64,000 nucleotides of DNA from Proteromonas lacertae (taxonomy: Eukaryota). A program made the position numbers and the translations under genes. The stretch is taken from assembly GCA_002245135.1 (NCBI GenBank), contig NGBS01000609.1, positions 1 through 64,000 of the forward strand, read 5' to 3'. Below the pieces are notes generated by a model. The model searched no databases. It was not told where the DNA came from and saw only the letters and a list, made by a program, of their open reading frames with translations. The stretch's first letter is position 1, and each line of letters begins with the position of its first letter. Shown piece by piece: positions 26,078 to 63,189 of the stretch.

Positions 26078-26335
26078 TACACAATTCCAAAGAATAATGA
26101 TAAGATATTATATGTATTATTCTATGAATGGCCAAAACACAGTGATAGTAAATTGACATTAACCATTCCCAAAGCAACAGATAATACTAAGATTAGTTTA
26201 TTGGGAGATAAAAAAGGATATAAATTTACAATTGAAAATAGTGAAAGCGGTATGATAATTCATTTCCCAATATTTGAATTTGATGATATTCCTGATACCT
26301 TTGCTTATGTGTTGAAATTATAAAATGTGAATTAA
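26078..26335 (+). pseudogene. 3' fragment of the alpha-L-fucosidase gene (inverted duplicate)
   Basis: Near-identical to reverse complement of 45566-45823; GAA to TAA change in LKLENVN gives a premature stop. Confidence 0.9.
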
Positions 26336-26355
26336 TTTTCTAATAATAATGAGTA

Positions 26356-29300
26356 TTTCTTTCTATTTTTTATGTTTTATATCAAAAGCTTGATAAGGTT
26401 TGTGTTTATTGAAACAGCTATTTTTTTTGAAAAGCTTTACTCACATTCATTTTGATATTTGAAGAGACAAATTATCTATAGTTATGCAGTCAGAATCTAC
26501 CTTAGATCAGAGTGTGATAAACGAAATAAAACTAACTGAAGTTGATGTTATAAATGGCAAAGCTTTCTCTTATTGTAAGGATCCTTTTATTTTAGTCCGA
26601 GATTGCTTCCTTCGGATTTACTGTGAGATGAAGAGTGTTATAAGCAACAGTAGAGAATCTAAATATCAAAAATGTTTTTTAGTGTATGGCAATGAAGGAA
26701 TGGGTAAAACAATGTTAAGCTGTTTTCTTGCTCACTGTTTCAGCAAAGATAAATATTTCGAGGGATATAATATTGTTTTTTACTGTTATACACGAGAAAG
26801 AAGTAAAAAATACTGTTATTATTATCGAGAAGCTTATGGTGTTGGATATGAAGAAATAAAAGATCTACCCTATACAAAGAGAAAAACAATAGTGATTAGT
26901 GATAATTATCCAATTAAAGAAGATGATTACAGTAATGCTGAGATAGTGATTATGGTATCTTCACCAAGTGCAGATAAATACAAAGTTATGAGTAATAAAA
27001 GAGCTCCAGTACAATTCTATTTACTACCTCTCACATCAGAAGAAATCAACTTCTGTAAAAGAATAGAATATAGGTTGTCTGAAATAGAATATATATATGA
27101 AAATGAATTTGATCCAGAAAGAGATGGTTTACCATCATATATACCAGCATCATACAATGAAATGTATTATATATATGACACTGATAGAATCGATGTAATT
27201 CCAGAAAGAATAAAGTTTAAATCAGATGAAATAGAAAGAAAAATTTTAACAACATACTTCAATGAACCAAAAAGATTTAAATATTTATATCATGCATTTA
27301 AGGATCAAAGAAATGGAATGATATTTGAAAGAATGTGCCATATTATTATAAAAGATAGGTTGCTTGATAATCAGAATATTCTATATATAGGAGGTAATAT
27401 GTGTTATCATGATAATATGAAAGATTTTGTTGATAAATATCTTCACTCAGATGAAAAGATATACGGAAATAGTGATATTTCTAATACCATTATATGTTGA
27501 TTTTAGTGAAAATCAAGAATTTCCAGCAATTGATGGCTGTATAATTAATATATTCAATATTACATCTGTTCAAATGACAATTAAAGATGATCATCCCACA
27601 GAAGATACAATAATTGTATTTCTGAATGTATATTAATATATTATTATACTTGATTAGATGATATACAGTTACTATAAAGATGTGATGATAGGCTACATAT
27701 TAAATACTCCTACTAATCCATTTCCAGAAGGTATTTCACAAGCATCTTCACTTTATGATCTTGGTTATATACCAAGTAGTTTAAAGAAATATATAATATT
27801 CAAAATGGATCAACGTAAAAGAATTCTATGTGAAAGTTATGTATATTCTATTATTTCTTATATTATTTCTAGTTCTTAATCAATGAAATTAACTGCAGAA
27901 GATATATCGACTCTGATTTGATGAATATGTATAGTGCTGATAGACAGGCAGAATTCAAAGATGTTATGGATAGTGATAAGACAAAATTTGAAGAATTAGG
28001 TGATTGAATTATCAGCCTAAATGTATAATGAATATATTGAAATGCTATTCAAAGAAAATGAAATTTAAGTATATAGATAAACTTAAAGTTTTAATAAAAG
28101 AACAATTAGAAGCAATCAAACAACAATTAAAAGAAGAATATGATAGATATACTACACAATTGTTAAGTATTTCAGAACCAATTGAAATATTTAAAATGAA
28201 AGTCAGATTAGCCATATTTAACAATATCATAAATATAATTGATAGACAATTAGAAGAATCAGTAAATGATGAAGTATTTAGCACCCAAATGAATGATTTA
28301 AAGAATGCAAATAAATGATTATAAAGCAAAAATAGTAGAACAAATAGATGTAGTAGATGAGTCATTCGAAAGTCGATGGAGCGAATTACTAAACAAAGCC
28401 AGACGAATTGAATGAAAGAGTAAAGGAATTACATAACGAAATTGAAATGATAAAAGAGCAACTACAAGAATTGCTTGACAGATTGAATTATTTCCTTAAC
28501 CAGTTGAAAACAAATGAACCAGTTTTAGAATTAATTGATTTAGTTTCATCATTACAAAAGAATTTATCTGATATATCAAACAGAATAACCACATTATATG
28601 GTGGAATAACCGAATCACAAAATGATCCAGAAAAGTTAAATAAAATATGTGATAGTATTCAAGTATTGAAGAGTCACCTTTATATGATACATAAGCTGTT
28701 CCAATCATATTTACAGTTTAACTTGGACAATGATCTTGAAACATGTTTATCATATTTGAGACTTTTCCTTAAATATTTTAAAGCAGATATGGACATAGAA
28801 GATAATGATGATGATAAATCATCTATACCACCTTCATCAACTACTGAAGTTAATGGAGAATCAATAAGTGATAATGACAAGGAAATATCTACTGAAGAAT
28901 TAACCAATTTACATAATAAACTTCTTTCATTACAATATCAACTCCAATTGTTAGGTATATGCGATCTTGAAGTAGGAAATGAATTAGTGAAGAATAAAAT
29001 GAATTCTGAAATAGGAGAATATAGTGAAGATTACAAAAAGTTGTTGCATGATTTAGAAGATTATTTAATCGATGAATATTACATTGATTTAGATGATGAA
29101 GAGAGAGAAGATATGAAAAATGAAATTATTACTGTATATTATGTTATTATTATTATTATAGTCAATTGACAATAATAGAAGCTATGATCGTACTGAATTA
29201 AACAGATGTAATCCAATATTTAGAATTATATTTGTTACATATGATCATGATGAAGTTACAACAAAACTTGTAATAGGTGAAGAAGATTTTGGATATTATG

Positions 29301-32300
29301 GCAAAGAATTTAAAAATGAAATGATAAAAGAGATGAATAAGACATATATTTGGAATCTTTCAAAAACAGATGAAGAGAATATAATAGAAAACACAACAAG
29401 GTTAGTAAGACCAAATAAAAATATTCTAAATGAAGACCAAAAAAAAATAATCAGATCTGTAAAATCAAAAAGACTTAGATTTTCTACTTTAAATTTGACT
29501 ACAAAAGAATTATTAAATGTTTATAATCAAGAAACAACTCCTGAAAGATTTACTGCAAATACAACATTTAAATTCAAGCCAAAAGAATATTCCAATTTAC
29601 TTATAAAAGAACCTTCGAAAAAGCCAATTAATCCTGAAAAAGATATTAATGAGTTGGTTAAAGAATTTAACAACAACATTATTATGAATCAAGCTAATAA
29701 AACTGATAGTTTAAAAGTAATTATAGATGAATATAATGATTTTGTAAATGAATTAAATACATCAAATGGTGAATTGAAGTTAAATGAAGATAATAAAAAG
29801 ATAATAAATGGTATTGAAAATTTATGTAGGAGAATAGATGAACTTGTAGTACTGAATGAAACGATAGATGAAGTAATGCATTTGAAAAATTATATTGGAT
29901 TAACTGTTCCTACCAGAAACTATGTGAATAAATTATTATCAGAATTACCTATTGATGAGACTAAGAAGTGGATAGATGATAATTTATCTAATTTAGTCTT
30001 TCCTATTACTAAACAAGCTGAAGATAATTTACTTCATCGCTTATCTATTGTAAATGAAGAGAAAATTAATAAGTTTATACTGACATTACCTTACATTGTT
30101 ATTAAAGAAGGAATAGGTAAATTACTATGTGAATTACTATATGCTGTAAGTAAAAATTACATAGAAAAATTTTCATTTGAATTGCCTGTTAATGCTACTC
30201 AAAATGTAGTTGTTAAGTTATTAGCTGAATTACGTATTACAATTGATGAAGATTCTATAGATCAGTTTATATCTAAATATCCTGTTCCTAAAGAAGATGA
30301 TATTTATCAATTTTTATTAGCATTACCTGTTGATGGTACTAAAAAGCATATTGATAAGTTATTATCTCAATTACCTATTCCTATTAATGAAGATAATAAA
30401 GAAAAGCTAATATCAATATTATGTGTTGGTAAAGAAGAAGATATTCAGAATTTCATACCTGATTTAATTAAAGATGCTACTAAAGAGTATATTGACAAGT
30501 TAAAACCTGCCTATAATTTAATATCAATAATGAAAGGAAATTTAAAAGATTTTTGTTCTACCTGTACAAGTATATTTATATTAATATAATATTGTAATAA
30601 TAGAAACAAATGAATTATGTCGAATATTTGAAAAACCAGTGATTATAAACTATGATAATACAATAAGCATTGGATGTGATATATTCCAATATCCTGAAAG
30701 GAGAGTGTATATCCGAGATGTTTATAAAGATATATGGAATGAATTGAAATATTATATATTCTTTTTGAAAATACGAGAAGTTAAACGTGAAAGTTTTGAT
30801 GATATTAATGCTATTGTTGAAATAATAAATGAATGTATAAGAGAAGATAATGAAGAGAATAATAAAAGAAATATAAATATTATTAGAGAATATATTATAA
30901 AAGGAAAATGTTTTGAAGAGAAAATAGCTGTTCTAGATGATATGAACAATAAAATATTTAGAGGTAAAATCAGAAAGGAATATAATGGAAAAGAATACAA
31001 AGCAGTTAAATGCTTTAAAATTTTATTAAGAGGAAATCCAGGATGTGGTAAAACCTCCTTTATAATATTCATGCTGAAGAAGATCATTGAGTTAAATGAA
31101 AGAATTAGTGATGATAGATTAAAAATTGATGCTAAAGTATTTAAAAATGGAGGTGATCATGATTTCAATAAATATCGATTAGTAAAAGAAAATGTTCGTG
31201 AAGGTATTAATAATCCAAAACGCTCTGATATAGCTATAACAGATTCATATAACTTAGATACAAGAGATGCAAAAGCTTCAATTATATTATACATTACTGC
31301 TCCAGATTATAAGAATTATAAAAATTTTATAGTAAATAATCGTAATAAATTCTATTATTATATGGATGTATTTAGTAATGATGAAATAAAGGAATGGGAA
31401 GAAAAATGTTTAACAACTAAACTGACATATTCAATATATAAAAATGGATTCAATAGTAAATATGGAAATGTTCCAAGACATATCTATTATGCAGCAATAT
31501 ATGATGTATGTTATGGTAGAGATTATTGGGATGAGTTATACTCAATAGGTATTAAGAGAATAATTGGAGGTATTGGATATATGGAATTTCTAATGAAATA
31601 TCTATTTCCAAGTGAGTCTGCAGAAGATAAAATATCTAATTATAAATCAGAAAGATTTGATATTACATTATGTCATTTGATAGTGAAATATTCTATACCA
31701 TATAAAGATGAAGTGAATAAAATCAAATATTATGATAGAATCAATGAATATGAAATGGAGTTTATATCTGATGAAGTATTTGATTATATTTATGATAACA
31801 TAAAACACAAAGCTGAAAAAGCAGATATTAATGATATTCAAGGGATTTTTAGGAGTATTTATAATAAAAAAGATCATCAATTATTTCAATTACTATTTGA
31901 AGAACTAGTATTTTACAACTGCTTATATAATGGAGAAAAATTAAAATATAAAAATAATACAATAATAGAAACAATTGATAAGAATGAATTTGACACTTTT
32001 AAAGAATTATTCAATGTTGATATATATTCTACTAAAATGAAAGGTGTGTATTTAGTTCATTTAGCAACTGTTGAGAATAGAGAAATGATTTATTTGATGA
32101 ATAACTGTTTTATTCATATTATAAATGATCCAAGCGAAGCCAAAAGAGAATGTAATGAAATAATTGATGAATGTATTATTCAACTGTCAATGAAAATGAA
32201 ATGGTTAAATTTTCATTATATATTTGTTTCTTCAAAAGGCAAAACTTCTAAACAATTAAAAGTAGAGAAAAAGTTTATATCTCATTTAAAGCCAATAATA

Positions 32301-32578
32301 GATCTAACAACTAATGAACCTGGTATAGTGAGTCTTAAACCATCAAATAATGGAACATATTATTGTGTAAATGGAGAGAGGATAAAAGTTATTATATTAT
32401 ATTATCGATCAGAATTTGAGAAAGAAGTGTATGGAAAAGATTTTGGTTTAAAATTACTTTATTAAACCACTTTTAATGATTATTATATATTATAATGTTT
32501 ATATCTTTTGATTAAGGGTTATATACTTTATTATCAGTATTTCTTTTAATGTTATACATCACAAAAAGAAATTAAAAT
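26356..32578 (+). mobile_element. Putative NTPase-REase mobile unit A
   Basis: Flanked by direct repeat ATAATAATGAGTA at 26343-26355 and 32579-32591; 5' end conserved in copies B and C. Confidence 0.6.
26484..32465 (+). CDS. Crinkler/RHS-like tandem P-loop NTPase + REase-like protein, copy A (~1,950 aa spliced; several frameshifts)
   Basis: Walker A GNEGMGKT and GNPGCGKT; VIMVSSP; FPAID...SVQMTI; introns 27628-27657, 27841-27872, 29134-29161, 30570-30603 join the ORF-track pieces. Confidence 0.75.
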
Positions 32579-32745
32579 ATAATAATGAGTAATAAAGGGT
32601 TTTTGATTCAAAAAAATAGCCGTTTATGTGTTCTATTTCACCCTATAGTTTTTTCACCCTTAGAAACATAATTAGACAATAAAAAATACATCAATCGATT
32701 CGTAATATTATGCTGGGCTCAAATATGCCCTTAAAAAATCGATAC

Positions 32746-33313
32746 TGTTGATCCGCCGTTCAGCTAAATACGCCGTTGAGCGTTAAGAAGACTTTTTTCA
32801 ATTCTAATATCATAAACGTAACCTCTGCCCTTCAATATTACTAATCAACACTTTGTTTTCCAAAATAGTTACGTTGGCCTAATATCGTATAGTAGTGTTT
32901 AGGTTCCTGTACTGGAAACAATTTTTATTTTTATATTATTTTAAAAGCTTATAACAATAGCAGACATCGGGATAAAGGTTTTAAATAGAAAAGGAATACC
33001 TACTTATTGCATTTACCTACTTAAAATTTATTTTGAAAAAACAGGCTTGAATGAAGCTTGAATAGATTTTTTATTTTTTCGTTTTTAAGCGTCCTAACAT
33101 CTAAATATGTGTGATTTAATTGCTTAAACTAATGTATTTTTAACTCCAGTAGTGATTGAAGCAAAAAATTAAAAATATATATCGCAGATGAAGCTTATAT
33201 GACAAAGTAAGATTATATTTGCATATAACTCGCCATTAAACCACACACTATCATTTTAGAATTGAAAAAGTCTTCTTAACGCTCAACTGCGCATTTAGCT
33301 CAACGGAGCAACA
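32746..33313 (+). mobile_element. Non-autonomous TIR element (MITE), copy 1, TGTTG...CAACA
   Basis: ~55-60-bp imperfect TIRs; 5-bp TSD GATAC at 32741-32745 and 33314-33318. Confidence 0.9.
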
Positions 33314-33324
33314 GATACATATAT

Positions 33325-33368
33325 CATGATCACAATATGGTGCGATATGACACCATATGGTGATCATG
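33325..33368. repeat. Hairpin, 18-bp stem with one mismatch
   Basis: CATGATCACAATATGGTG ... CACCATATGGTGATCATG. Confidence 0.8.
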
Positions 33369-33463
33369 TCATCTCAAATAAAACGAATCTATTTTTCTAT
33401 TATTGAAATTTCTTATAAGACGTATATTACATATCAAAATAATGCTAATTAATTATGTAAATT

Positions 33464-33766
33464 ATGAACAACACCCCCACACAAAAAAAACAATCAAATC
33501 ATTTGAATCAATGGTATTTTGAGTTAACACACAAAATGATTAACATGATTATGAGTCAACGTTTGATATTAGTGTTTGTAGGTCCTTGTGACTTAGGAAA
33601 TAGAGATTATCCGAAAGTTACATACACACCAACAATGAAAAAAGTAATCATCAGAATGCCACAAAGATGTTTTAATGGTAAGATGCCAATATTCTTCAAA
33701 TGTACTCATATGGATACAGAGATGATAGAATATATTGAAACTCATACAATATTTCACCACACATAA
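33464..33766 (+). CDS. Intronless hypothetical protein in the virus-like centre
   Basis: 100-aa ATG-initiated ORF converging on the protease ORF. Confidence 0.5.
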   Translation: MNNTPTQKKQSNHLNQWYFELTHKMINMIMSQRLILVFVGPCDLGNRDYPKVTYTPTMKKVIIRMPQRCFNGKMPIFFKCTHMDTEMIEYIETHTIFHHT

Positions 33767-33791
33767 AAAAAATAATTAAGAAATAATTATA

Positions 33792-36700
33792 TTATATTAA
33801 ACCAAATTGTTTTTTCATTAACCTAATTTTTGCTTCACCCACTATTGTATTATAGTCAGTAGCCTTTTTGAAACTACACTGATCTCTTAAAATATTTTTC
33901 AAAAAATTAATAGCAAAAAAACCGCAGTTAGCAGTATTTGAATTTTGATTATGTACTCCATTGATTTTAAGTTCATACTTTTCATTATGATACTTCTTTA
34001 ATTTTTTCAAATTTTTTTTAAATTCTTCCAAGCGTTGAGGATCTTCACCAAATGAATCATAGTACAGGAATTGCTTCTTGATATTGTCAACTACTAAGGC
34101 CACCCAATGACCTATAGAATCAGGGCTAGCTTGTGTGGTGAGTGTATTGATTATGATTCCCCATTGATTCTTCTTTTTGGGTATAGGAAGTACAAGCTCG
34201 TCCCAGCAGAACACTCCCATGAACTTTCCGTGGAAATTATTGAACTCATTTTTCACAATTAACTCTATATCAAAGTTCGATAAGGCATCTGAAGTGATAC
34301 TGTTATACAAAACTTTCCTACGTGAAATTAATTTCTTTACTTTTTTATTATTTCCATTACCTATTCCAAAGTAACTCATAGCTTCACTGAGTTGTTTTGC
34401 TTGATCTAAATTACTCACTGCTCTACCAAAATTAGTGAGTGAACTTGGAATTGTTTGTTGTGAACGTCTCACGTAGTTATCCATTTTGATTGCATTCTTG
34501 TGTTGATATGGTGTTGGTTTTAACCAGTTTAATAAACCACCTGCATCTAGCAAACCAAAACAAGCAGTCAATGCACTGAATACTGTTCCTATACCTGCAA
34601 CAGTTTGTAATGTACCTGTTGGATCAGCTGCAACAACAGTTTTTGCCATTGATGGCATAGCTTTTGATAATTCACTAATACCTTTAACTGCTGCTGCAGC
34701 AGTTGTTGCATCACCTCCATTTGCAGCTGCAGCTACAGTTGCTGCTGTTTTTAATGTATCACCTACATTTTTTGCATCTATATTTCATATATTAGAAAAT
34801 TTGTAGAAGAATGGAACTAATAGAAATAAGTATCGAACATATGGATGAGTATTGAACATAAATGAAACACCAAAGTTATACAACAAGTCTACAGGTAACC
34901 ATGATTTTTGAATTGCTTCAGGTAACATTGACTTAACTTTTTCTGAATTACCATAATACAAGTCAGTGATAGCAGGTAATCTACCACCTGATAGCATACG
35001 AATTATTTCATAGTAGTCGAAAATGAAGTACCACATTACATACAAGAACCCTGATGTTGGTAGCTTGGATTTTTTCCATAACCAATAAGCCAAACATGTC
35101 ATTACTATTGCACGAACATATTTCATTGCATGATCTACTTCAAACATTTGAGGAGTAACTCCACCTACCAAATATGACTTCATTGTATAGTATATTTGTG
35201 GAAATATCCTAAATACATTCTCTACACACAGGAACAAATTACCAGCAAAACCCATAAAATCAGATTCACGTAATGAATCGAGTGCTTTTTGAAATTGTGA
35301 ATTTTCAAATTGTGCCCATGAACTACATGCAGTTTTCACTAAACCAATAGCTATTTCATATTTTTGTTTATTATCTGCATTCACCCACTCTTGAGGAAGT
35401 GAGTGACCTAACTTCTCTCTGTTATAATCAAAGTTAATGAAATCTCTACTATTTTGTGATGCTATTTCATTCAGTTCTCTATATTTATCTTCATTAATCC
35501 ATATATGCGGTTCTTTATCTATATCTATAGCACTATTCACTAGTTCTTGATTTTTTGGATCTAATGCCCATCTATAAAATTTTGATCTTTCTAATATCTC
35601 TTGATCATCCATATATCTTTGTGCCTTTTGATTATTCAATGCAATATATTCTTTTACTTTTTCAGCTCGATTCGGATCAAAATTATATGGATCTGAATAT
35701 TGATTGATCTTACTTACTCCATCAACTAATTCATTTTGCAAATACTCCTGCTGTAGTAATAGTTTGTTATAATATTCTATTGCATCTTTATCATTACCTG
35801 TTAATTTATCCCAAGTTGAGGTCAACCAATCTTGTCTATAATTTTTATACGCTGCTAATTGAGGATTCTTTTCTATTATCTCTTGTAATGATTTATAATT
35901 TTGTAATTTAGGAAATTTTTGTAACAAAGGATCTGTAACTCTATTCATTCCATTATCATATGCCTGAACATCTGCTTCTGTAACATATTCAGGCCAATTC
36001 AAAAGATAGCTTCTTGGATTAGATGTATCTAATTCTGCTAATGGGAATGTTCCTCTTAAATGTCCTTTTTTCTGTTCACGATCTAGCATATCATAAAAAT
36101 TAATATGATAATTGTTAGGCAACATTGAAGCATAATTATTAGTTAATGCATATTGAACTTCTTTTCGAGCTTGTCTATTCAAACCTGGACTAAATAATTT
36201 ATCATAATTCCAATTAAAATCATATCCTACCGTTTCTTTTGGTATATATGGTTGAATATATTCTGGTATTTGACTTGGCTGTAATTGTGATGTTCCATTA
36301 TAAGCAGCACTAGCAGTATCATACATTTGTTGTCTTGGATTAGTAATAATGACATGCTTATTAGGACCAACACTTTGACCCACTCTTAATGGTATAATAC
36401 CACTATTACCACCTAATTCCTTAGTAGCCAAGAGATGCCTCCGTGGGATACTCTCTAATTTTAGTTTATTTCTTCTGTGATGTTTCTTATGCTTGAAATG
36501 AACATGTTATCTTCTACCTGAACCTGTCTTTGGATATCCATCTAAAGACATGCCAAATAAACCATAATTTACTTTAGGCCATAAAACAAATTGTTTTCCC
36601 ATACCATTAATTAAATTACACACATCTGATCGTGCTTCTGGAGCATTACGACCACATTGATATTTGAAATAATGTAAATAATCTACTAATTGATCTATTG

Positions 36701-37291
36701 TTCCTCCATAGTTTGAAAACTTTGATATAATATCTAATGGCAATCCTACATTTTTACATACATTTTCTAAATCTTGTTTTGTATTATTCATAACCATTTG
36801 CTTAACTGATTCATAATCATATTGATTAATCAAAAATGGTTGTAATTTTTCCATAATAGCATCAACATTATATCTTTGTTGTTGTTGTTGTTGTAATGGT
36901 TGTGTGATATTTTGGAATGTTGGCTGGGCTGTTGCCTCCGTGGAGGCAGCAACACCTGCCATCATTCCGGCGTAATTTGCAGCATTTGAACTTTGATTAT
37001 TATAACCTGCACCAGTTGCAGGTATTGAAGTTGTAACATTAGAACTGGCCCCAGTTGTAGTACTATTAGTTGTATTATTATAACTGGTGCCAGTTGTAAC
37101 ATTCGATACTTGAATATTTGAAGTGGCCGGCGCACTCGTCGAATTTGTTGTTGTAGGAGTAGCACCAAATATACCTCTGAACCAAAATTGAAACATATAA
37201 TATAGTAGCCATTTAAAATATTTACTCAAAAGTATTTCAACTAGTTAGCGTTTAAAATACTTTGAACGACTTGGAATTTAGGCTCGAGCAT
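33792..37291 (-). pseudogene. Virus-like polyprotein with membrane segments and C-terminal adenain/Ulp1-clan (Polinton/virophage-type) cysteine protease, interrupted by two in-frame stops
   Basis: ORFs 36507-37229, 34785-36431 and 33792-34658 are in one frame, separated only by TAA (36507-36509) and TGA (34785-34787); IIINT...GHWVAL...YYDSFG...NQ...CGFF motifs; upstream ATG at 37291 is one base out of frame. Confidence 0.8.
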
Positions 37292-37599
37292 GACTTAATT
37301 TATTTTGTTAAATAGAAAGAGATATGGAATTTTATATTTTCAAAAATATATATTATGATGTATTTATTTATGATATATTAGAAAAATCAAATAAAAAACA
37401 AAAGAAAGTTAAAAAAAATGAATCGAACGTTCGAGTTAAATCGAATGATATAAATTGTATTTTTATATATTTTTAATTAATTGATTATTTGAAAACAAAA
37501 TTAATGGAGTAGAGATAATTTTACTTCAATATATTAGTTGTAATTATAGCAGTCAACAATTTAGCAATATTGTTTTTAATTTAAGAATATTGTCAAGTA

Positions 37600-38713
37600 A
37601 ACAAAATTATTTCAGCAGATACCAGTATACATATATTATTATTATTTTGGTGATTTCCAACAATACTGCAATAGCGTTATAAAATGCAGTATTATACATG
37701 ATCCAACTGATTTCAGAAATCAAATTAGATATTTCAAAGATATACTGTTATACCTATTTGATTACAATCCAAATTATAAGTAAAATATTGTATAATATAT
37801 TTTATAATATTAATAAATAGTATGATAGAATGTTAGATTGGATATATATCGATCTAAAAGTGATTGTATATAACCCGAGTGGTTACACAGATCAGAAAGG
37901 AACATATGATGAAATTGAAAAGCAATAAAAAGAAAAAGAAGAAAAAAAGAATCAACAACAAGTAGAGAAGAACAAAACCAAATCACCAGTAAAAAGAAGA
38001 AGAAAGTATGATGATGATCATGATGATGATGAAGATAAAGATGTTGTGCGCTGTTGAGCTAAATGCGCAGTTGAGCGTTAAGAAGACTTTTTCAATTCTA
38101 AAATGATAGTGTGTGGTTTGATGGCGAGTTATATGCAAATATAATCTTACTTTGTCATATAATCTACATCTGCAATATATATTATTTGAACTTTATCCCA
38201 ACATAATGAAAACAATTATAATTTTATTTTTAATTTTTTTACTTCGATCACTACTAGAGTTAAAAAAACATTAGTTTAAGCAATTAAATCACACATATTT
38301 AGATGTTAAGACACTTAAAAACGAAAAAATAAAAATCTATTCAAGCCTCATTCAAGCCTGTTTTTTCAAAATAAATTTTAAGCAGGTAAATGCAATAAGT
38401 AGGTATTCCTTTTCTATTTAAAACCTTTATCCCGATGTCTACTATTGTTATAAGCTTTTAAAATAATATAAAAATAAAAATTGTTTCCAGTACAGGAACC
38501 TAAACACTACTATACGATATTAGGCCAACGTAATTATTTTGGAAAACAAAGTGTTGATTAGTAATATTGAAGGGCCAGAGGTTTCGTTTATGATATTAGA
38601 ATTGAAAAAAGTCTTCTTAACGCTCAACGGCGTATTTAGCTGAACGGCGCACAACAAAAGATAAAGATGGCAGTGATGATGATGCAAGTCCAGTAGTAGA
38701 TCTGATAGAATAG
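37600..38713 (+). pseudogene. Spliced gene remnant interrupted by MITE copy 2
   Basis: Intron 37780-37820; internal TAA; frame ...KYDDDHDDDEDK|DKDGSDDDASPVVDLIE* restored by removing the MITE and one TSD; start approximate. Confidence 0.6.
38042..38656 (-). mobile_element. Non-autonomous TIR element (MITE), copy 2, inverted relative to copy 1
   Basis: TGTTGTGCGC...GCGCACAACA termini; 5-bp TSD AAAGA at 38037-38041 and 38657-38661; 47 bp longer than copy 1. Confidence 0.9.
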
Positions 38714-38821
38714 GACTGCTAATTAAGTCCTTAAAATTTATTTTTATAAAAATTCTCATATAAAATTATTTATATGCGTAGCTAATTATACGCAAAATTT
38801 TTATTGTCTAATAAAAATAAC

Positions 38822-38856
38822 TAAAGGGTTATAGCACACTGTGCTATAACCCTTTA
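38822..38856. repeat. Perfect 35-nt palindrome (17-bp arms)
   Basis: TAAAGGGTTATAGCACA-C-TGTGCTATAACCCTTTA. Confidence 0.9.
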
Positions 38857-38870
38857 TTACTCATTATTAT

Positions 38871-39007
38871 TTGTTATACAAAGATTTACCAGGTGATGAC
38901 ATTCTTGACAATGGAGCGCTTGGACTTCGATTCTTTAAAACTATTTTTGGAGAAGTAGAAGAGATAGAACTTAATTGATTTACAGAATACACTTTAGATT
39001 GGTTCAT
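38871..39007 (-). pseudogene. Duplicated 5' fragment of the giant coiled-coil gene
   Basis: Near-identical to 59222-59358 (MNQSKVYSVNQLSS...GKSLYN), then runs into TAA at the junction. Confidence 0.9.
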
Positions 39008-39441
39008 TCTATTATTTTATAGAAAATTTATTTTGTTTATACCTCAAGATGTTTATTTACTTTCTCTAATTACAAATATAAAATGATTAAAATTTAAAAA
39101 TGGCTTGATTGATTCAAATCTTTCAAAAATGATTTTGTTGATTTTTTCATAGAATATATAGTAAATTCAGCAATACCATCGATTTTCGAAGTATTTCATT
39201 TGAATTATATGAATAGACGAAATAACTAATAGAAAAGTATAAGTGAAGTCTCTTTAGTTGTAGAAGATGAATGTGATATTGAAATGATAAAGATCATATG
39301 TAAATGTGATAAAAAGAAATAAGAGTTTTAAATGCGTAGAGAATCCCTCATTTATGTTAGATTGTTATAACTCGAATATGAGTTGATTTAGAAAATATAA
39401 TCTTTATCAAGTAATGATATTTGAAAGATAACTTATTTTTG

Positions 39442-42400
39442 TTAGATTGTTGTTTTTTTTTCAGATGGTGGCTGTTTAACATCATTTGGTGAAGATGGTA
39501 GTTGTATATTTTTTAGAATAAAATCCTTTCCATACACTTCTTGCTCGAATTCTGATAAATAATACTTTAAATCAATTTTATCTTCTGATATTTCTATATT
39601 CTGTTTAACTGGTTTATAAGTTATTGGATCTAGTATTGGCTTTAAATGAGATATAAACTTTTTCTCTACTTTTAATTGTTTAGAAGTTTTGCCTTTTGAT
39701 GAAACAAATATATAATGAAAATCTAACCATTTCATTTTCATTGACAGTTGAATAATACATTCATCAATTATTTCATTACATTCTCTTTTGGCTTCGCTTG
39801 GATCATTTATAATATGAATAAAACAGTTATTCATCAAATAAATCATTTCTCTATTCTCAACAGTTGCTAAATGAACTAAATACACACCTTTCATTTTAGT
39901 AGAATATATATCAACATTGAATAATTCTTTAAAAGTGTCAAATTCATTCTTATCAATTGTTTCTATTATTGTATTATTTTTATATTTTAATTTTTCTCCA
40001 TTATATAAGCAGTTGTAAAATACTAGTTCTTCAAATAGTAATTGAAATAATTGATGATCTTTTTTATTATAAATACTCCTAAAAATCCCTTGAATATCAT
40101 TAATATCTGCTTTTTCAGCTTTGTGTTTTATGTTATCATAAATATAATCAAATACTTCATCAGATATAAACTCCATTTCATATTCATTGATTCTATCATA
40201 ATATTTGATTTTATTCACTTCATCTTTATATGGTATAGAATATTTCACTATCAAATGACATAATGTAATATCAAATCTTTCTGATTTATAATTAGATATT
40301 TTATCTTCTGCAGACTCACTTGGAAATAGATATTTCATTAGAAATTCCATATATCCAATACCTCCAATTATTCTCTTAATACCTATTGAGTATAACTCAT
40401 CCCAATAATCTCTGCCATAACTTACATCATATATTGCTGCATAATAGATATGTCTTGGAACATTTCCATATTTACTATTGAATCCATTTTTATATATTGA
40501 ATATGTCAGTTTAGTTGTTAAACATTTTTCTTCCCATTCCTTTATTTCATCATTACTAAATACATCCATATAATAATAGAATTTATTACGATTATTTACT
40601 ATAAAATTTTTATAATTCTTATAATCTGGTGAAGTAATGTATAATAATAGTAAAGAATTTGCTTGTCTTTCAGAAAGGTTATGTGAATCTGATATAGCTA
40701 TATCAGAGATATTTGGATTGTTAATACCTCTATGGATTTTTTCTCCAATTAATCGATATTTATTGAAATCATTATTACCTCCATTTTTAAATACATATAC
40801 TTCAATTTTCAATTTATTATCATTAATTTTTTTATTTAATTCAATGATCATCTTCAACAAGAATATTATAAAAGAGGTTTTACCACATCCTGGATTTCCT
40901 CTTAACAGAATTTTAAAAAACGTAACTTCATCGAAGTTTTTTCCATTATCTTCCTTTCTGATTTTACCTCTAAATATTTTATTGTTCATATCATCTAGAA
41001 CAGCTATTTTCTCTTCAAAACATTTTCCTTTTATAATATATTCTCTAATAATATTTATATTTCTTTTATTATTCTCTTCATTATCTTCTCTTATACATTC
41101 ATTTATTATTTCAACAATAGCATTAATATCATCAAAACTTTCACGTTTAACTTCTCGTATTTTCAAAAAGAATATATAATATTTCAATTCATTCCATATA
41201 TCTTTATAAACATCTCGGATATACACTCTCCTTTCAGGATATTGGAATATATCACATCCAATGCTTATTGTATTATCATAGTTTATAATCACTGGTTTTT
41301 CAAATATTCGACATAATTCATTTGTTTCTATTATTACAATATTATATTAATATAAATATACTTGTACAGGTAGAACAAAAATCTTTTAAATTTCCTTTCA
41401 TTATTGATATTGAATTATAGGCATGTTTTAACTTGTCAATATACTCTTTAGCAGCATCTTTAATTAAATCAGGTATGAAATTCTGAATATCTTCTTCTTT
41501 ACCAACACATAATATCGATATTAGCTTTTCTTTATTATCTTCATTAATTGGGATAGGTAATTGAGATAATAACTTATCAATATCCTCTTTAGGAGTATTA
41601 CTAGGATTAGGTATTTTTGACAAAAATTGATGAATATCATCTTTATTAGGAACAGGTAATGCTGATATTAACTGATCTATAGAATTTTCACTTATAGTGA
41701 TTTTCAATTCAGCTAATATCTTTTTAATATCTTCTTTTGTAACATCAACAGGCAATTCAGATAAAAACTGTTCTATGTAATTTTTACTTACAGCATATAG
41801 TAATTCACATAGTAATTTACCTATTACTTCTTTATTAACAATGTAAGGTAATGTTAATGTATATTGATTAACAACAGAAGACATGTAATTAAGTAACCTA
41901 TTTTTGTTATCTTCATTTATAGGAAAGACTAAATTGGATAAATTATCATCTATCCACTTCTTAATTTTATCAATAGGTAATTCTGATAATAATTTATCCA
42001 CATAGTTTCTTGTAGGAACAGTTAATCCAATATAATTTTTCAAATGTTTTACTTCTTCTTTATCTTTATTCAGTACTACAATTTCATCTATTCTCCTACA
42101 TAAATTTTCAATACCATTTATTATCTTTTATTATCTTCATTTAACTCCAATTCACCATTTGATGTATTTAATTCATTTACAAAATCATTATATTCATCTA
42201 TAATTACTTTTAAACTATCAGTTTTATTAGCTTGATTCATAATAATAGCATTGTTAAATTCTTTAACCAACTCATTAATATCTTTTTCAGGATTAATTGG
42301 CTTTTTCGAAGGTTCTTTTATAAGTAAATTGGAATATTCTTTTGGCTTGAATTTAAATGTTGTATTTGCAGTAAATCTTTCAGGAGTTGTTTCTTGATTA

Positions 42401-45400
42401 TAAACATTTAATAATTCTTTTGTAGTCAAATTTAAAGTAGAAAATCTAAGTCTTTTTGATTTTATAGATTTGATTATATTCTTTTGGTTTTTATCTAAAG
42501 AACATTTTCCTGATTTTGTTATTTCTGTTCTTGGCCTTTTTGCAGGATTTACAAAATCCCAAATATATGTCTTATTCATCTCTTTTATCATTTCATTTTT
42601 AAATTCTTTGCCATAATATCCAAAATCTTCTTCACCTATTACAAGTTTTGTTGTAACTTCATCATGATCATATGTAACAAATATAATTCTAAATATTGGA
42701 TTACATCTGTTTAATTCAGTACGATCATAGCTTCTATTATTGTCAATTGACTATAATAATAATAATAACATAATATACAGTAATAATTTCATTTTTCATA
42801 TCTTCTCTCTCTTCATGATCTAAATCAATGTAATATTCATCGATTAAATAATCATCTAAATCATGCAACAACTTTTTGTAATCTTCACTATATTCTCCTA
42901 TTTCAGAATTCATTTTATTCTTCACTAATTCATTTCCTACTTCAAGATCGCATATACCTAACAATTGGAGTTGATATTGTAATGAAAGAAGTTTATTATG
43001 TAAATTGGTTAATTCTTCAGTAGATATTTCCTTGTCATTATCACTTATTGATTCTCCATTAACTTCAGTAGTGGATGAAGGTGGTATAGATGATTTATCA
43101 TCATCATTATCTTCTATGTCCATATCTGCTTTAAAATATTTAAGGAAAAGTCTCAAATATGATAAACATGTTTCAAGATCATTGTCCAAGTTAAACTGTA
43201 AATATGATTGGAACAGCTTATGTATCATATAAAGGTGACTCTTCAATACTTGAATACTATCACATATTTTATTTAACTTTTCTGGATCATTTTGTGATTC
43301 GGTTATTCCACCATATAATGTGGTTATTCTGTTTGATATATCAGATAAATTCTTTTGTAATGATGAAACTAAATCAATTAATTCTAAAACTGGTTCATTT
43401 GTTTTCAACTGGTTAAGGAAATAATTCAATCTGTCAAGCAATTCTTGTAGTTGCTCTTTTATCATTTCAATTTCGTTATGTAATTCCTTTACTCTTTCAT
43501 TCAATTCGTCTGGTTTGTTTAGTAATTCGCTCCATCGACTTTCGAATGACTCATCTACTACATCTATTTGTTCTACTGTTTTTGCTTTATAATCATTTAT
43601 TTCATTCTTTAAATCATTCATTTGGGTGCTAAATACTTCATCATTTACTGATTCTTCTAATTGTCTATCAATTATATTTATGATATTGTTAAATATGGCT
43701 AATCTGACTTTCATTTTAAATATTTCAATTGGTTCTAAAATACTTAACAATTGTGTAGTATATCTATCATATTCTTCTTTTAATTGTTGTTTGATTGCTT
43801 CTAATTGTTCTTTTATTAAAACTTTAAGTTTATCTATATTTAAATTTTCATTATTTTGAATAGATTTCAATATATTCTTAACTTTAGGCTGTAATTCAAT
43901 CACCAATTCTTCAAATTTTGTCTTATCACTATCCATAACATCTTTGAATTCTGCCTGTCTATCAGCACTATACATATTCATCAAATCAGAGTCGATATAT
44001 CTTCTGCAGTTAATTTCATTGATTAAGAACTAGAAATAATATAAGAAATAATAGAATATACATAACTTTCACATAGAATTCTTTTACGTTGATCCATTTT
44101 GAATATTATATATTTCTTTAAACTACTTGGTATATAACCAAGATCATAAAGTGAAGATGCTTGTGAAATACCTTCTGGAAATGGATTAGTAGGAGTATTT
44201 AATATGTAACCTATCATCTTATCTTTATGGTAACTGTATATCATCTAATCAAGTATAATAATATATTAATATACATTCAGAAATACAATTATTGTATCTT
44301 CTGTGGGATGATCATCTTTAATTGTCATTTGAACAGATGTAATATTGAATATATTAATTATACAGCTATCAATTGCTGGAAATTCTTGATTTTCACTAAA
44401 ATCAACATATATGGTATTAGAAATATCACTATTTCCGTATATCTTTTCATCTGAGTGAAGATATTTATCAACAAAATCTTTCATATTATCATGATAACAC
44501 ATATTACCACCTATATATAGAATATTCTGATTATCAAGCAACCTATCTTTTATAATAATATGGCACATTCTTTCAAATATCATTCCATTTCTTTGATCCT
44601 TAAATGCATGATATAAATATTTAAATCTTTTTGGTTCATTGAAGTATGTTGTTAAAATTTTTCTTTCTATTTCATCTGATTTAAACTTTATTCTTTCTGG
44701 AATTACATCGATTCTATCAGTGTCATATATATAATACATTTCATTGTATGATGCTGGTATATATGATGGTAAACCATCTCTTTCTGGATCAAATTCATTT
44801 TCATATATATATTCTATTTCAGACAATTCACACTCTATACTGTTACAAAAGTTGATTTCTTCTGATGTGAGAGGTAGTAAATAGAATTGTACTGGAGCTC
44901 TTTTATTACTCATAACTTTGTATTTATCTGCACTTGGTGAAGATACCATAATCACTATCTCAGCATTACTGTAATCATCTTCTTTAATTGGATAATTATC
45001 ACTAATCACTATTGTTTTTCTTTTTGTATAAGGTAGATCTTTTATTTCTTCATATCCAACACCATAAGCTTCTCGATAATAATAACAGTATTTTTTACTT
45101 CTTTCTCGTGTATAACAGTAAAGAACAATATTATATCCCTCGAAATATTTATCTTTGCTGAAACAGTGAGCAAGAAAACAGCTTAACATTGTTTTACCCA
45201 TTCCTTCATTGCCATACACTAAAAAACATTTTTGATATCTAAATTCTCTACTGTTGCTTATAACACTCTTCATCTCACAGTAAATCTGAAGGAAGCAATC
45301 TCGGACTAAAATAAAAGGTTTTCTACAATAAGAGAAAGCTTTGCCATTTATAACATCAACTTCAGTTAGTTTTATTTCGTTTATCACACTCTGATCTAAG

Positions 45401-45417
45401 GTAGATTCTGACTGCAT
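39442..45417 (-). CDS. Crinkler/RHS-like tandem NTPase + REase-like protein, copy B (nearly intact)
   Basis: Same motifs and four introns as copy A; only break seen is a one-base poly-A difference near 42125. Confidence 0.8.
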
Positions 45418-45565
45418 AACTATAGATAATTTGTCTCTTCAAATATCAAAATGAATGTGAGTAAAGCTTTTCAAAAAAAATAGCTGTTTCAATAAACACA
45501 AACCTTATCAAGCTTTTGATATAAAACATAAAAAATAGAAAGAAATACTCATTATTATTAGAAAA

Positions 45566-47466
45566 TTAATTCACATTTTCTAATTTCAACACATAAGCAA
45601 AGGTATCAGGAATATCATCAAATTCAAATATTGGGAAATGAATTATCAAACCACTTTCACTATTTTCAAATGTAAATTTATATCCTTTTTTATCTCCCAA
45701 TAAACTAATCTTAGTATTATCTGTTGCTTTGGGAATGGTTAATGTCAATTTACTATCACTGTGTTTTGGCCATTCATAGAATAATACATATAATATCTTA
45801 TCATTATTCTTTGGAACTGTGTAAGCTATATTTTTATTTTTAGCATTATCAAATGGAACTTTATATGGTTTTGTTTTATAAATAGCTTCACCATTTATTT
45901 TCATAAATCTTCCAATATCTCTTAATCTTTCTTCATATTCTGGAGTTATTATTCCATCAGCTGTTGGACCAACATTTATTAACATATTACCACCTGTTGC
46001 TATCACTGTTATTAAGTCTCTTATTAACTCTTTTGAGGAATAAAAATCACTTAATCTTTTAGTTTTATCATAACACCAACAATCTTTTGTCATTGTAAAA
46101 CAACATTCATATTTCTCATCCAGTGTTGCATCAGGAATAAATCGATCACTTCCTGTTAAATAATCACCACTACCATCATATCCCCATCTTGAATTAGTTA
46201 CTACTGTATTCTTAACTGGACTTGATGAGTATAACCAACTTAAGAATTTTTCATTTTGATAATATAATTCTCGTTTATCCATTTCATCAGAACCATCTGA
46301 CCATATTAAATCAGGTTTATAATCATTAGTTATTTGAATCAAAGAGGGATGCAATACTTGTTCTGTATATTTCGTTGTTTTATCTTTCTTATCTTTTTCC
46401 CATAAGGCATTTCCCCATTCTTTTATACTGTGATATAAACCCATTTTCATTCCTGTTGCTTTTACTGCTTTGGTTAATTCACCTGTTAAATCTCTATGTG
46501 ATCCTCTTTCTACTGAATTATATAAGTAATGTTGTGGAGATGGATAATTACAGAATCCATCATGATGCTTTGTTGTTAATACTACATATTGAGCACCAAC
46601 ATCTTTAAACAATTCAGCCCATTCACTTGCATTGAATAATTGAGCTTGAAACATATCAGCAAATTGATCATAAGTGAATTTCTTACCATTACATGGATAT
46701 TTATCTTCAGCTATTCCACTACATCCATACATCTTGTTATGATATTGAACATAAGCTGCTTGACCATTATGAAGATATTTATAATACCATTCGCTTTTGA
46801 AAGCTGGAACACTGAATAAAGTCCAATGAATGAATATACCAAATTTGGCATCATCAAACCATTTTGGAGATGGTCTTGCAGCTAATGCAGCTGGCTTTTC
46901 TGGATATGGAGGTAAAGGACATGCTTTATCTTCATAGGTTGAATTACAAGCATAAGAAGTTGAAACTGTGAAATGATAGTTTATTTTTCTTCTTATTAAT
47001 ACATTGGTGATTTTTGCATCTGAGATTGATTTATCACAAACAAAATCCATTGAAAACATTTTCGTTACGATTGCACCCATCTTTTCACCATCTATATACG
47101 CTACTCTTGCTCCTTTGTCAGGATTTTTAATCTCGCTTGGTAGAATTATCTCGGTTTTGTTAATGCCTAATGACACACATACATCATTCTCTATTTTATA
47201 ACCTGTTGATGCTACAACGCTGTTACACTTTTCAGGAACATCAACAACATTACCTCCAACTAAGAATATAATTCAACAAATATACGTCGCAAAAAATAGT
47301 TAATCCCATCCTTCTCATATTGCATCGATTTCAACTCTGTTAGTCTACATAAATCATATCTGTAACAACCCTTCTCATCATTTGATGGAATTGACAAAAT
47401 ACATGAGTTACAAGTAACAAAAGCAAAAGCTACCACAAAAACAAACAAATAATTGAGTTTATTCAT
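45566..47466 (-). CDS. Secreted alpha-L-fucosidase (GH29) with N-terminal MRH-like domain
   Basis: WFDDAKFGIFIHW, LTTKHHDGF, PDLIWSDG, GGNMLINVGP; signal peptide; one short intron near 47260-47285. Confidence 0.92.
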
Positions 47467-63010: not shown

Positions 63011-63189
63011 AACTGAAGAAGGAAAGTTTGTAATAAGGAAATAAATGAGATTTGAAAATAATAACCGTTTCAATAAACACAAACTATATCAAGCTTTTGA
63101 ATATAAAACATTAAAATAGAAAGAAATGCTACTTCATTCGAGAAATAAATAGAAATATATAAAACATAAACAAAATAAAAAGTAATCAA

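What the first reader, a model, noticed from the sequence alone, without database searches (positions are those of the whole stretch)
33792..37291. Hidden ~1,150-codon virus-like polyprotein: membrane-active region fused to an adenain-type protease
Seen: three ORF-track entries form one reading frame broken only by TAA (...KTGSGRR*HVHFKHKKHHRRNK...) and TGA (...FSNI*NIDAKNVGDTLKTAATVAAAA...). It is intronless. It has a Thr/Ser/Asn-rich N-terminal part, several hydrophobic segments, an Ala/Gly-rich stretch, and a protease with intact His-Asp-Gln-Cys motifs. G-x-G motifs followed by basic tracts (GSG-RR, GNG-NNKKVKK) sit at domain borders. Established: Polintons, virophages and adenoviruses encode such maturation proteases, usually as small stand-alone genes cutting at Gly-containing sites. 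Inference: a self-processing virion core or entry polyprotein from an unusual endogenous virus. The stops are probably decay, because the likely ATG is also frameshifted, but readthrough is not excluded.
Basis: partly seen in the sequence, partly recalled or inferred. Interest (0 to 1): 0.8.

Follow-up and report, generated by a model that had tools for sequence, protein, structure and literature searches.

The report
Virus polyprotein carrying its own protease
The genome of a likely single-celled eukaryote holds a broken copy of a gene, likely from a Polinton-like DNA virus, in which a protease sits at the end of one long protein that it is predicted to cut into virion parts; unbroken relatives show that the single long protein is real.

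Summary
Observation confirmed: one minus-strand frame of 1,150 codons (37244-33792) has only two internal stops; shuffles give about 96. Two unbroken relatives (P0007, 1,354 aa, 43% over 932 columns; P0052, 1,068 aa, 38%) run through both stop positions in one ORF, so the polyprotein is real. Only the first 245 residues have no detected homologue. The C-terminal clan-CE protease keeps His-Asp-Gln-Cys. Its next relatives lie in Polinton-like contigs (A32 ATPase, pPolB, rve integrase). There too it usually ends a 440-900 aa ORF (12 of 15 bounded loci, some near-identical). A G-x-G lies just before the protease in 37 of 47 long proteins, against 26 of 493 background windows. In the window's subfamily, Gly sites fence a 36-39 aa basic peptide, a helical region and a hydrophobic/amphipathic region. 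Self-cleavage, virion role and membrane activity are inferred, not shown. The window copy is an orphan: no capsid, ATPase or polymerase gene was detected nearby. The stops are most likely recent decay; assembly error and recoding remain open, and two relatives also break at the second junction. Eight paper searches found no description of this layout. New variant of a known kind.

The parts
37241..37291 (-). Upstream ATG opening 16 codons, out of frame with ORF1; possible original start (inferred)
   Evidence: what the sequence shows
36507..37244 (-). ORF1, residues 1-245: amphipathic N-terminal helix, Thr/Ser/Asn-rich stretch, then a variable region; own ATG at 37196; no homologue detected
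   Evidence: no significant match to P0007/P0052 N-termini; residues 125-245 were in the query and gave no match of their own
36516..36524 (-). G-S-G (241-243), predicted cleavage site 1; G-A-G in P0007, G-K-G in P0051, absent in P0052
36507..36509 (-). Internal TAA (codon 246); P0007, P0051 and P0052 are open here
36408..36515 (-). Basic His/Lys/Arg peptide (244-279, 36 aa, 12 K/R) fenced by G-x-G and G-G; 39 aa with 15-16 K/R in P0007 and P0051; predicted DNA-binding core peptide
   Evidence: function inferred
36408..36413 (-). G-G (278-279), predicted site 2; a G-G lies just before the same conserved block in P0007, P0051 and P0052
35160..36407 (-). Region A (280-695), conserved, predicted mostly helical, 36-37% identical to P0007/P0052; fold unknown
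   Evidence: (pLDDT 43.6)
35160..35165 (-). G-G (694-695) in L-V-G-G-V, predicted site 3; G-G-V-T in all 4 sequences that cover it
   Evidence: motif as described in PMC6048507
34788..35159 (-). Region B (696-819), aromatic/hydrophobic helices, best-conserved non-protease part (45-55% identity)
34785..34787 (-). Internal TGA (codon 820); P0007/P0043/P0045 and P0052 are open here; P0001 and P0049 appear frame-broken at the same junction
34659..34784 (-). Ala/Gly-rich insertion (821-862) peculiar to this copy, upstream of the first ATG of ORF3
34359..34658 (-). Region C (863-962): hydrophobic Gly-rich helix (881-899) and linker, ending in G-I-G (960-962), predicted site 4; candidate membrane-active segment (inferred)
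33792..34358 (-). Basic tract plus clan-CE cysteine protease (963-1150) with His1046, Asp1063, Gln1100, Cys1107
32746..33310 (.). Flanking short element with ~60-bp terminal inverted repeats and its own 5-bp target duplication (GATAC); an independent insertion, not part of the gene
38042..38656 (.). Second copy of that element (89% identical, inverted) with a different 5-bp target duplication (AAAGA)

Best explanation
This is a broken genomic copy of a single long gene, likely from a Polinton-like DNA virus, whose product ends in a clan-CE (adenain/Ulp1-type) cysteine protease that is predicted to cut the precursor at conserved Gly sites into virion parts. Shown: continuity of the frame, unbroken single-ORF homologues, intact catalytic residues, conserved Gly sites, and Polinton-like gene neighbours for the more distant protease relatives. 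Inferred mechanism: the precursor is packaged into the assembling particle, helped by its basic tracts. The protease then cleaves after G-x-G(241-243), G-G(278-279), G-G(694-695) and G-x-G(960-962), releasing a short basic DNA-binding peptide, a helical core/scaffold protein, a hydrophobic/amphipathic piece for membrane passage, and the free protease. In the window the gene is an orphan and was likely inactivated recently by two nonsense changes.
For: Unbroken homologues P0007/P0043 (1,354 aa) and P0052 (1,068 aa) cover residues ~250-1150 in one ORF and extend ~200-490 residues further upstream. The 60 ATG-free codons after the TAA are as conserved as the rest (22 of 55 identical to P0007, 19 of 58 to P0051, 12 of 60 to P0052). 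The 102 ATG-free codons after the two stops would stay open with P about 4e-4 if non-coding. Gly sites are conserved and match the GG|X and GX|G motifs cut by the mavirus protease (PMC6048507). Family-wide: 37 of 47 long proteins have G-x-G at -40..+8 of the protease start, against 26 of 493 background windows. 12 of 15 bounded loci from a DNA scan with no length filter have >= 313 open codons upstream of the match. Neighbours there include A32 ATPase, pPolB and rve-chromo integrase. Tree: window + P0007, P0052, P0001, P0002, P0008 form one set at 100/100. No readthrough-type RNA structure after either stop (z 0.03 to -1.5). TAA and TGA end other long ORFs in the window.
Against: No cleavage, expression or virion data. 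No DNA context for the close subfamily (P0007, P0052, P0008), so its link to a capsid-bearing element is by protease kinship (30-40% identity) only. The subfamily's branch is long (1.17) and its placement among the Polinton-like rows is an open fork. The presumed capsid genes of those contigs were not verified as jelly rolls (no Pfam or PDB match). P0052 lacks G-x-G at sites 1 and 4. In 6 of the 37 G-x-G hits the motif uses the Gly that opens the protease's own first motif (read), and the 47 rows include near-duplicates. Pfam C48 scores above C5 (33 vs 24 bits). The window copy shows no excess of private changes (80 against 89 and 130), so decay is not independently shown. Both stops sit at domain borders, which random decay does not predict. 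Residues 1-245 have no homologue.
Confidence: 0.68

Rival explanations
1. The long N-terminal part is a permanent tether or scaffold: the protease stays fused and cuts other virion proteins only, and the Gly sites are flexible linkers.
For: No cleavage was tested. P0052 lacks G-x-G at two of four sites. In mavirus two further GXG sites gave no identified products (PMC6048507). N-terminal extensions of the wider family share little beyond a short basic N-terminal motif.
Against: Gly sites of the cleavable type recur at the protease border across very divergent proteins and fence a short basic peptide of near-constant length. Separate small genes of the related contigs carry the same G-x-G / G-G sites before amphipathic peptides.
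Confidence: 0.11
2. The breaks are assembly errors, and the host carries an unbroken, possibly expressed or co-opted, polyprotein gene.
For: The window shows error-like lesions elsewhere: isolated single-base gaps between the two arms of the inverted duplication, and three successive +1 frame junctions in a Vps13-like host gene. The gene has intact catalytic residues and no excess of private changes.
Against: Those lesions are indels. This gene has no frameshift across the 926 columns aligned to P0007 (one frame) but has two in-frame stops. Only 6.1% of single substitutions make a stop, so about 30 substitution errors without an indel would be needed.
Confidence: 0.1
3. The stops are functional: readthrough or frameshift-type recoding, or a very recent split into separately expressed pieces, limits how much protease-bearing product is made (Gag-Pro-like).
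For: Both stops fall at domain borders. Only 3.3% of stop-making changes lie within 5 codons of the four Gly sites, and the TAA does (noticed after the fact). P0001 and P0049 also appear frame-broken within about 12 codons of the TGA (alternate-frame match 9 of 11 and 15 of 18 residues). The ORF from the ATG at 34658 keeps every conserved part of region C and the protease. A frameshift-linked Hexon-Adenain fusion has been suggested for adintoviruses (10.1101/2024.03.25.586562).
Against: P0007/P0043/P0045 and P0052 are fully open. The three lesions differ in kind. No stimulatory RNA structure. P0001 was found through a length filter that favours split forms. First ATGs at 60 and 43 codons are about what chance gives, and those Met positions are not conserved.
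Confidence: 0.09
4. It is a cellular SENP/Ulp1-type protease gene of the host.
For: Pfam C48 is the top family. SENP1 and SENP2 appear among weak PDB matches.
Against: Intronless over 3.45 kb with higher G+C (30-35%) than the flanks (about 25%). Its relatives with context lie beside A32 ATPase, pPolB and integrase genes. Adenovirus proteases rank 1-4 in the PDB fold search, though on a poor model and with E about 1e-3.
Confidence: 0.02

Closest known systems
Protease-encoding Polinton-like viruses: Gossevirus (GKS1), VC20 and VC35 groups (Bellas and Sommaruga 2021, PMC7805220; bioRxiv 10.64898/2026.06.19.733378)
   Same: Adenain-like protease in 10-20 kb protist-virus contigs with A32 ATPase, pPolB or helicase, rve integrase and phospholipase-like genes. 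VC20 has relatives in amoebae, and distant relatives here come from Acytostelium and Cavenderia. One 377-aa protease with an extra N-terminal domain and a G-G before the protease is in Table S2 of PMC7805220.
   Different: The passages read do not describe the protease as the end of a 500-1,800 aa precursor. I could not assign the relatives to a named group. The window holds no detected capsid, ATPase or polymerase gene.
Virophage maturation protease (mavirus MVP; Born et al. 2018, PMC6048507)
   Same: Clan-CE protease, packaged in the virion, cuts at GG|X and GX|G and frees basic peptides.
   Different: Stand-alone gene: the 13 virophage proteases seen in Table S1 of PMC7805220 are 143-239 aa. 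It acts on the capsid protein and MV13, not on a precursor that contains it.
African swine fever virus pS273R with polyproteins pp220/pp62
   Same: A clan-CE protease cuts structural polyproteins at G-G sites. pS273R is the second-ranked PDB sequence match, and a weak one (E 0.012).
   Different: The protease is a separate gene and the virus is a large nucleocytovirus. No similarity to pp220/pp62 was detected; none was tested directly.
Adenovirus adenain with precursors pVI, pVII and pX; adintovirus PLA2X/GasderminX
   Same: Gly-site processing; basic core peptides and membrane-active peptides as products (roles of pVI, pVII and pX partly recalled).
   Different: These are separate genes. Here protease and putative substrates are one chain.
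'Cahain' of segmented bidnaviruses and suggested 'Hexain' fusions of adintoviruses (Buck et al., 10.1101/2024.03.25.586562)
   Same: [quoted passage not shown]
   Different: Different virus groups. Hexain is a hypothetical frameshift product. No conserved self-cleavage sites are described in the passages read. Homology to the window protein was not tested.

Membership tests
Clan-CE viral maturation protease (adenain/vUlp1) | His-Asp/Glu-Gln-Cys catalytic order and C5/C48 profile match | tested here: met
   His1046, Asp1063, Gln1100, Cys1107; C48 33.3 bits, C5 23.6 bits, both above cut-off
Clan-CE viral maturation protease (adenain/vUlp1) | Fold closer to viral than to cellular clan-CE enzymes | tested here: inconclusive
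   Model pLDDT 40; adenovirus proteases rank 1-4 but E ~1e-3, Chlamydia DUB and SENP rows close behind; viral Ulp1 rows E 2e-5 to 4e-4; wide VIA search filled by the N-terminal helix
Clan-CE viral maturation protease (adenain/vUlp1) | Cleaves virion precursors at GG|X or GX|G | not testable with these tools
   Sites are conserved; cleavage needs an experiment
Polinton-like virus / Polintoviricetes element | Double jelly-roll major capsid and penton genes in the element | tested here: inconclusive
   None detected in the 64-kb window by tblastn with ORFs of the related contigs; in those contigs conserved 445-501 aa and 263-319 aa ORFs fit by size and linkage but gave no Pfam or PDB match
Polinton-like virus / Polintoviricetes element | A32-type packaging ATPase, pPolB or helicase, and integrase linked to the gene | tested here: not met
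   Not detected in the window, so the window locus is not a complete element; met in relatives L002, L005, L011, L018; context of the closest homologues unavailable
Polinton-like virus / Polintoviricetes element | Terminal inverted repeats with a target-site duplication bounding the element | tested here: not met
   The flanking inverted ~600-bp copies each have their own TIRs and different 5-bp duplications, so they are independent insertions
Gossevirus, VC20 or VC35 group | Group-specific major capsid profile | not testable with these tools
   Profiles not on hand; the fetched contigs were not found under their own names in the supplement of PMC7805220 (6 sample prefixes searched, 3 of 7 places shown, both rows other contigs)
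Virophages (Maveriviricetes) | Virophage-type capsid, ATPase and protease by marker profiles (PMC9952930) | not tested
   Marker HMMs not available; no Pfam virophage capsid hit for 6 candidate capsid ORFs
Cellular SENP/Ulp1 | Groups with cellular SENP/Ulp1 in a rooted tree | not testable with these tools
   No cellular sequences were obtainable as stored proteins; the tree has none; SENP1 match only E 0.017

The most novel reading that the evidence does not exclude
A lineage of small protist DNA viruses builds its core, entry peptide and maturation protease as one self-cleaving polyprotein, as RNA viruses and retroviruses do, and controls protease dose by a recoding or splitting point just upstream of the amphipathic-helix-plus-protease module, where three separate copies (window, P0001, P0049) are interrupted.
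Probability: 0.1. Interest if true: 0.85.

Novelty: new variant of a known kind. Interest (0 to 1): 0.56.

Why it matters
In adenoviruses, virophages, Polintons and asfarviruses the maturation protease is described as a small separate gene. A clade in which it ends a large precursor fenced by its own cleavage sites would be a self-processing structural polyprotein in a small DNA virus. It gives a direct one-gene test (express P0052 or P0007, with and without the catalytic Cys) of Polinton-like virion maturation. It also predicts core and entry proteins for a group with no isolated particle that I found, and may explain why large 'hypothetical' ORFs in such genomes go unannotated. The window copy itself is a broken orphan; its value is as the pointer to the family.

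Tried and rejected
No whole genome is held, so other copies in the host could not be sought. No sequencing run was listed; that is no evidence either way, and no reads were laid. Scans for the close subfamily found no close relative in viral contigs (two searches gave only distant L001 and L023) or genome contigs. The one metagenome scan gave only distant relatives, 29-47% identical. ORF2 alone found no homologue of similar length. Both AlphaFold models were poor (pLDDT 40.1 and 43.6). Fold searches for the middle region gave no meaningful match, which does not show a new fold. ESM Atlas gave no usable hit for ORF2 and one 0.75 lead to an unnamed viral cluster for P0052 560-880. Rfam found nothing at 32400-39600. 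Rejected: the flanking inverted repeats as viral ends (each has its own target duplication). Rejected by inspection, not by a tool: a short in-frame GT-AG intron spanning either stop. Rejected: an alternative genetic code, since TAA, TGA and TAG all end long ORFs in the window (21, 11, 6). A PBCV basic adaptor match for the family's N-terminal motif appeared in only 2 of the 34 long proteins P0009-P0042, below cut-off; lead only. The leave-one-out decay test was uninformative.
Full report
Observation. The minus-strand frame from 37244 to 33792 holds 1,151 codons with TAA at codon 246, TGA at codon 820 and a final TAA. The other five frames have 64-136 stops and 2,000 shuffles give 95.6 +/- 9.3, so this is far beyond chance. 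The last 188 residues are a clan-CE cysteine protease: Pfam C48 (E 5.6e-8) and C5 (E 4.7e-5) both pass their cut-offs, with His1046, Asp1063, Gln1100 and Cys1107 in place. An ATG at 37291 opens 16 codons in another frame. Only one segment (881-899) is strongly hydrophobic; the others are amphipathic.

Setting. The window is about 25% G+C and gene-dense, with eukaryotic genes (WD40, a Vps13-like gene, cytidylyltransferase, fucosidase). I infer a single-celled eukaryote; no tool named it and no whole genome is held. The gene is 30-35% G+C. It lies in the unique spacer of a 6.3-kb inverted duplication, between two copies of a ~600-bp element that each have their own terminal repeats and 5-bp target duplication. 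These are therefore not viral ends. tblastn with all ORFs of 90 aa or more from the related virus contigs of at least 4 kb matched only the protease in the window: no capsid, ATPase, polymerase or integrase was detected, though a very divergent one could be missed.

Is it one protein? A search for longer relatives gave 36 proteins. The best, P0007 (1,354 aa; cluster mates P0043, P0045), aligns at 43% over 932 columns across the second stop and continues about 490 residues upstream of the first. A search of 1.84 billion representatives with the non-protease part (residues 125-970) gave 4 hits. The cluster of one of them held P0052 (1,068 aa), a second unbroken member at 38% over 932 columns. 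The 60 codons between the TAA and the next ATG are as conserved as the rest (22 of 55, 19 of 58 and 12 of 60 identical). The two ATG-free stretches would stay open with P about 4e-4 if non-coding. So the frame was translated as one chain until recently. Residues 1-245 have no detected homologue; the N-termini of P0007 and P0052 are also unlike each other.

Anatomy. In the subfamily, G-x-G at 241-243 (3 of 4 covering sequences) and G-G at 278-279 (4 of 4) fence a 36-39 aa peptide with 12-16 Lys/Arg. A G-G-V-T at 694-697 is in 4 of 4, and G-x-G at 960-962 (3 of 4; A-M-G in P0052) precedes a basic tract and the protease. The other Gly motifs are not conserved as such. Identity to P0007/P0052 is 37/36% in region A (280-695), 55/45% in hydrophobic region B (696-819), 36/34% in region C (863-962) and 70/62% in the protease. 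The Ala/Gly-rich 821-862 is peculiar to the window. Folding failed to give usable models (pLDDT 40.1 and 43.6). The protease model still ranked adenovirus proteases 1-4 in the PDB at E ~1e-3, with Chlamydia DUBs and SENPs close behind, and viral Ulp1 proteases first among viral models. The middle region had no meaningful match.

The wider family. A DNA scan by protease motifs, with no length filter, gave 22 loci. Of these, 7 run off the contig, 12 have 313-741 open codons upstream of the match (ORFs of 441-896 aa; L002/L004, L005/L006 and L013/L014 are near-identical pairs), and 3, among the weakest hits, are short. The longer contigs share conserved ORFs of capsid and penton size plus A32 ATPase, pPolB or helicase, rve-chromo integrase and a phospholipase-like gene. 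The capsid-size ORFs were not verified as jelly rolls. Across 47 long proteins (window, 36, P0052, 9 locus ORFs), 37 have G-x-G within -40..+8 of the protease start against 26 of 493 background windows. Six of the 37 use the Gly of the protease's first motif; the 10 misses show x-x-G or G-G there. In a tree of 50 protease domains the window, P0007, P0052, P0001, P0002 and P0008 form one set at 100/100 on a long branch; its place among the Polinton-like rows is an open fork, and the tree has no cellular rows. DNA context for the close subfamily could not be obtained.

Mechanism. Shown: one chain, intact protease, conserved Gly sites, virus-type neighbours for distant relatives. From print: the mavirus protease is packaged and cuts at GG|X and GX|G, like adenain and pS273R (PMC6048507). 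Inferred: the precursor enters the assembling particle and the protease cuts it into a basic core peptide, a helical core protein, a hydrophobic/amphipathic entry piece and free protease. In related contigs similar peptides follow Gly sites in separate small genes. I put this reading, with the window copy as a recently broken orphan, at 0.68.

Why the stops? Decay is simplest. TAA and TGA end other ORFs here, no structure follows either stop (z 0.03, -0.58, 0.12, -1.51), and two homologue clusters are open. Against a clean verdict: the window has no excess of private changes (80 vs 89 and 130; the test is weak). The assembly shows indel-type lesions elsewhere, although this gene has no frameshift over 926 aligned columns. 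Both stops sit at borders. P0001 and P0049 also appear frame-broken at the second junction (9 of 11 and 15 of 18 residues recovered in another frame; inferred from proteins, DNA not seen), though P0001 came through a length filter that favours split forms. No sequencing run was listed, so reads could not decide.

Comparison with print. Eight searches found no description of a Polinton-like or virophage protease as the end of a self-processed precursor; the library lacks most subscription papers. Seen: PMC7805220 (passages, section 5, supplement rows by search): Gosseviruses and 3 of 12 VC20 members carry an adenain-like protease; 13 virophage proteases seen are 143-239 aa; one 377-aa fused form is listed without comment in the rows seen. 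Passages only: 10.64898/2026.06.19.733378, PMC11161782, PMC10120064, PMC6048507, 10.64898/2026.10.13.758929 (59), PMC9952930, PMC4409740, PMC4642659, 10.1101/2024.03.23.586382 (111), PMC12721341. Passages plus one section: PMC8502044 and 10.1101/2024.03.25.586562 (113, 117), which names 'Cahain' and hypothetical 'Hexain' fusions, the nearest precedents. PMC3671162: search listing only. Supplements of the bioRxiv preprints were not seen and could hold annotated genomes with this layout. Roles of adenovirus pVI, pVII and pX and the label 'Crinkler/RHS-like' are recalled. Earlier scan notes (none) include Gly-Gly-fenced basic tails in giant viruses; these are an unchecked analogy, not support.

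Verdict. It works most likely as a self-processing virion precursor of a Polinton-like virus. The window locus is not a complete element, and group membership could not be tested. New variant of a known kind; interest 0.56.

Noticed in passing
window 26078-32453 and 39511-45823; third, more diverged copy 59222-63130: A 6.3-kb inverted duplication (94.7% identical) of a cluster of P-loop NTPase-like genes (Crinkler/RHS-like by recall; weak NACHT match) surrounds the viral gene; each arm has different frame breaks.
   Followed up: partly
window 32746-33310 and 38042-38656: Two copies of a ~600-bp non-coding element with TG...CA ends, ~60-bp terminal inverted repeats and 5-bp target duplications (MITE-like); the second interrupts a short acidic/basic ORF on the + strand.
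   Followed up: partly
window 18074-24028 (-): A Vps13-like host gene (weak VPS13_VAB match) has three successive +1 frame junctions with no obvious intron: assembly error, decay or host frameshifting is unresolved.
   Followed up: partly
L001:4164-4655, L002:8703-9119, L010:6090-6605, L011:8706-9191, L013:6717-7640: Small genes of the related virus contigs carry G-x-G or G-G followed by amphipathic or Ala/Gly-rich peptides, resembling adenovirus pVI/pX-type precursors (resemblance recalled).
   Followed up: no
P0009-P0042 N-termini; L001, L002, L005, L011, L013, L018 protease ORFs: 28 of 36 long protease proteins begin with a shared ~40-aa basic motif (RPPR ... GRY type; loose pattern) that the window's subfamily lacks; weak PBCV basic adaptor match in 2.
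   Followed up: partly
P0008: 1,793-aa coiled-coil-rich protein ending in G-Y-G plus the protease; sister to the window's subfamily, on a 15.3-kb contig.
   Followed up: partly
L023:9722-10405: A 227-aa ORF with G-S-G plus this protease type sits among phage-like genes; possibly a chimeric contig or a transferred fragment.
   Followed up: no
P0031, P0040, P0042: Dictyostelid 'hypothetical proteins' carry the same G-S-G-protease; P0040 also holds a Ras domain and looks like a merged gene model.
   Followed up: no
window 45566-47272 (-) and 12239-14173 (-): Host alpha-L-fucosidase (E 6e-104) and an acyltransferase-3 protein with a weak SGNH match.
   Followed up: no
window 33461-33766 (+): A 101-codon open stretch converges on the protease's 3' end; no Pfam match.
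   Followed up: partly
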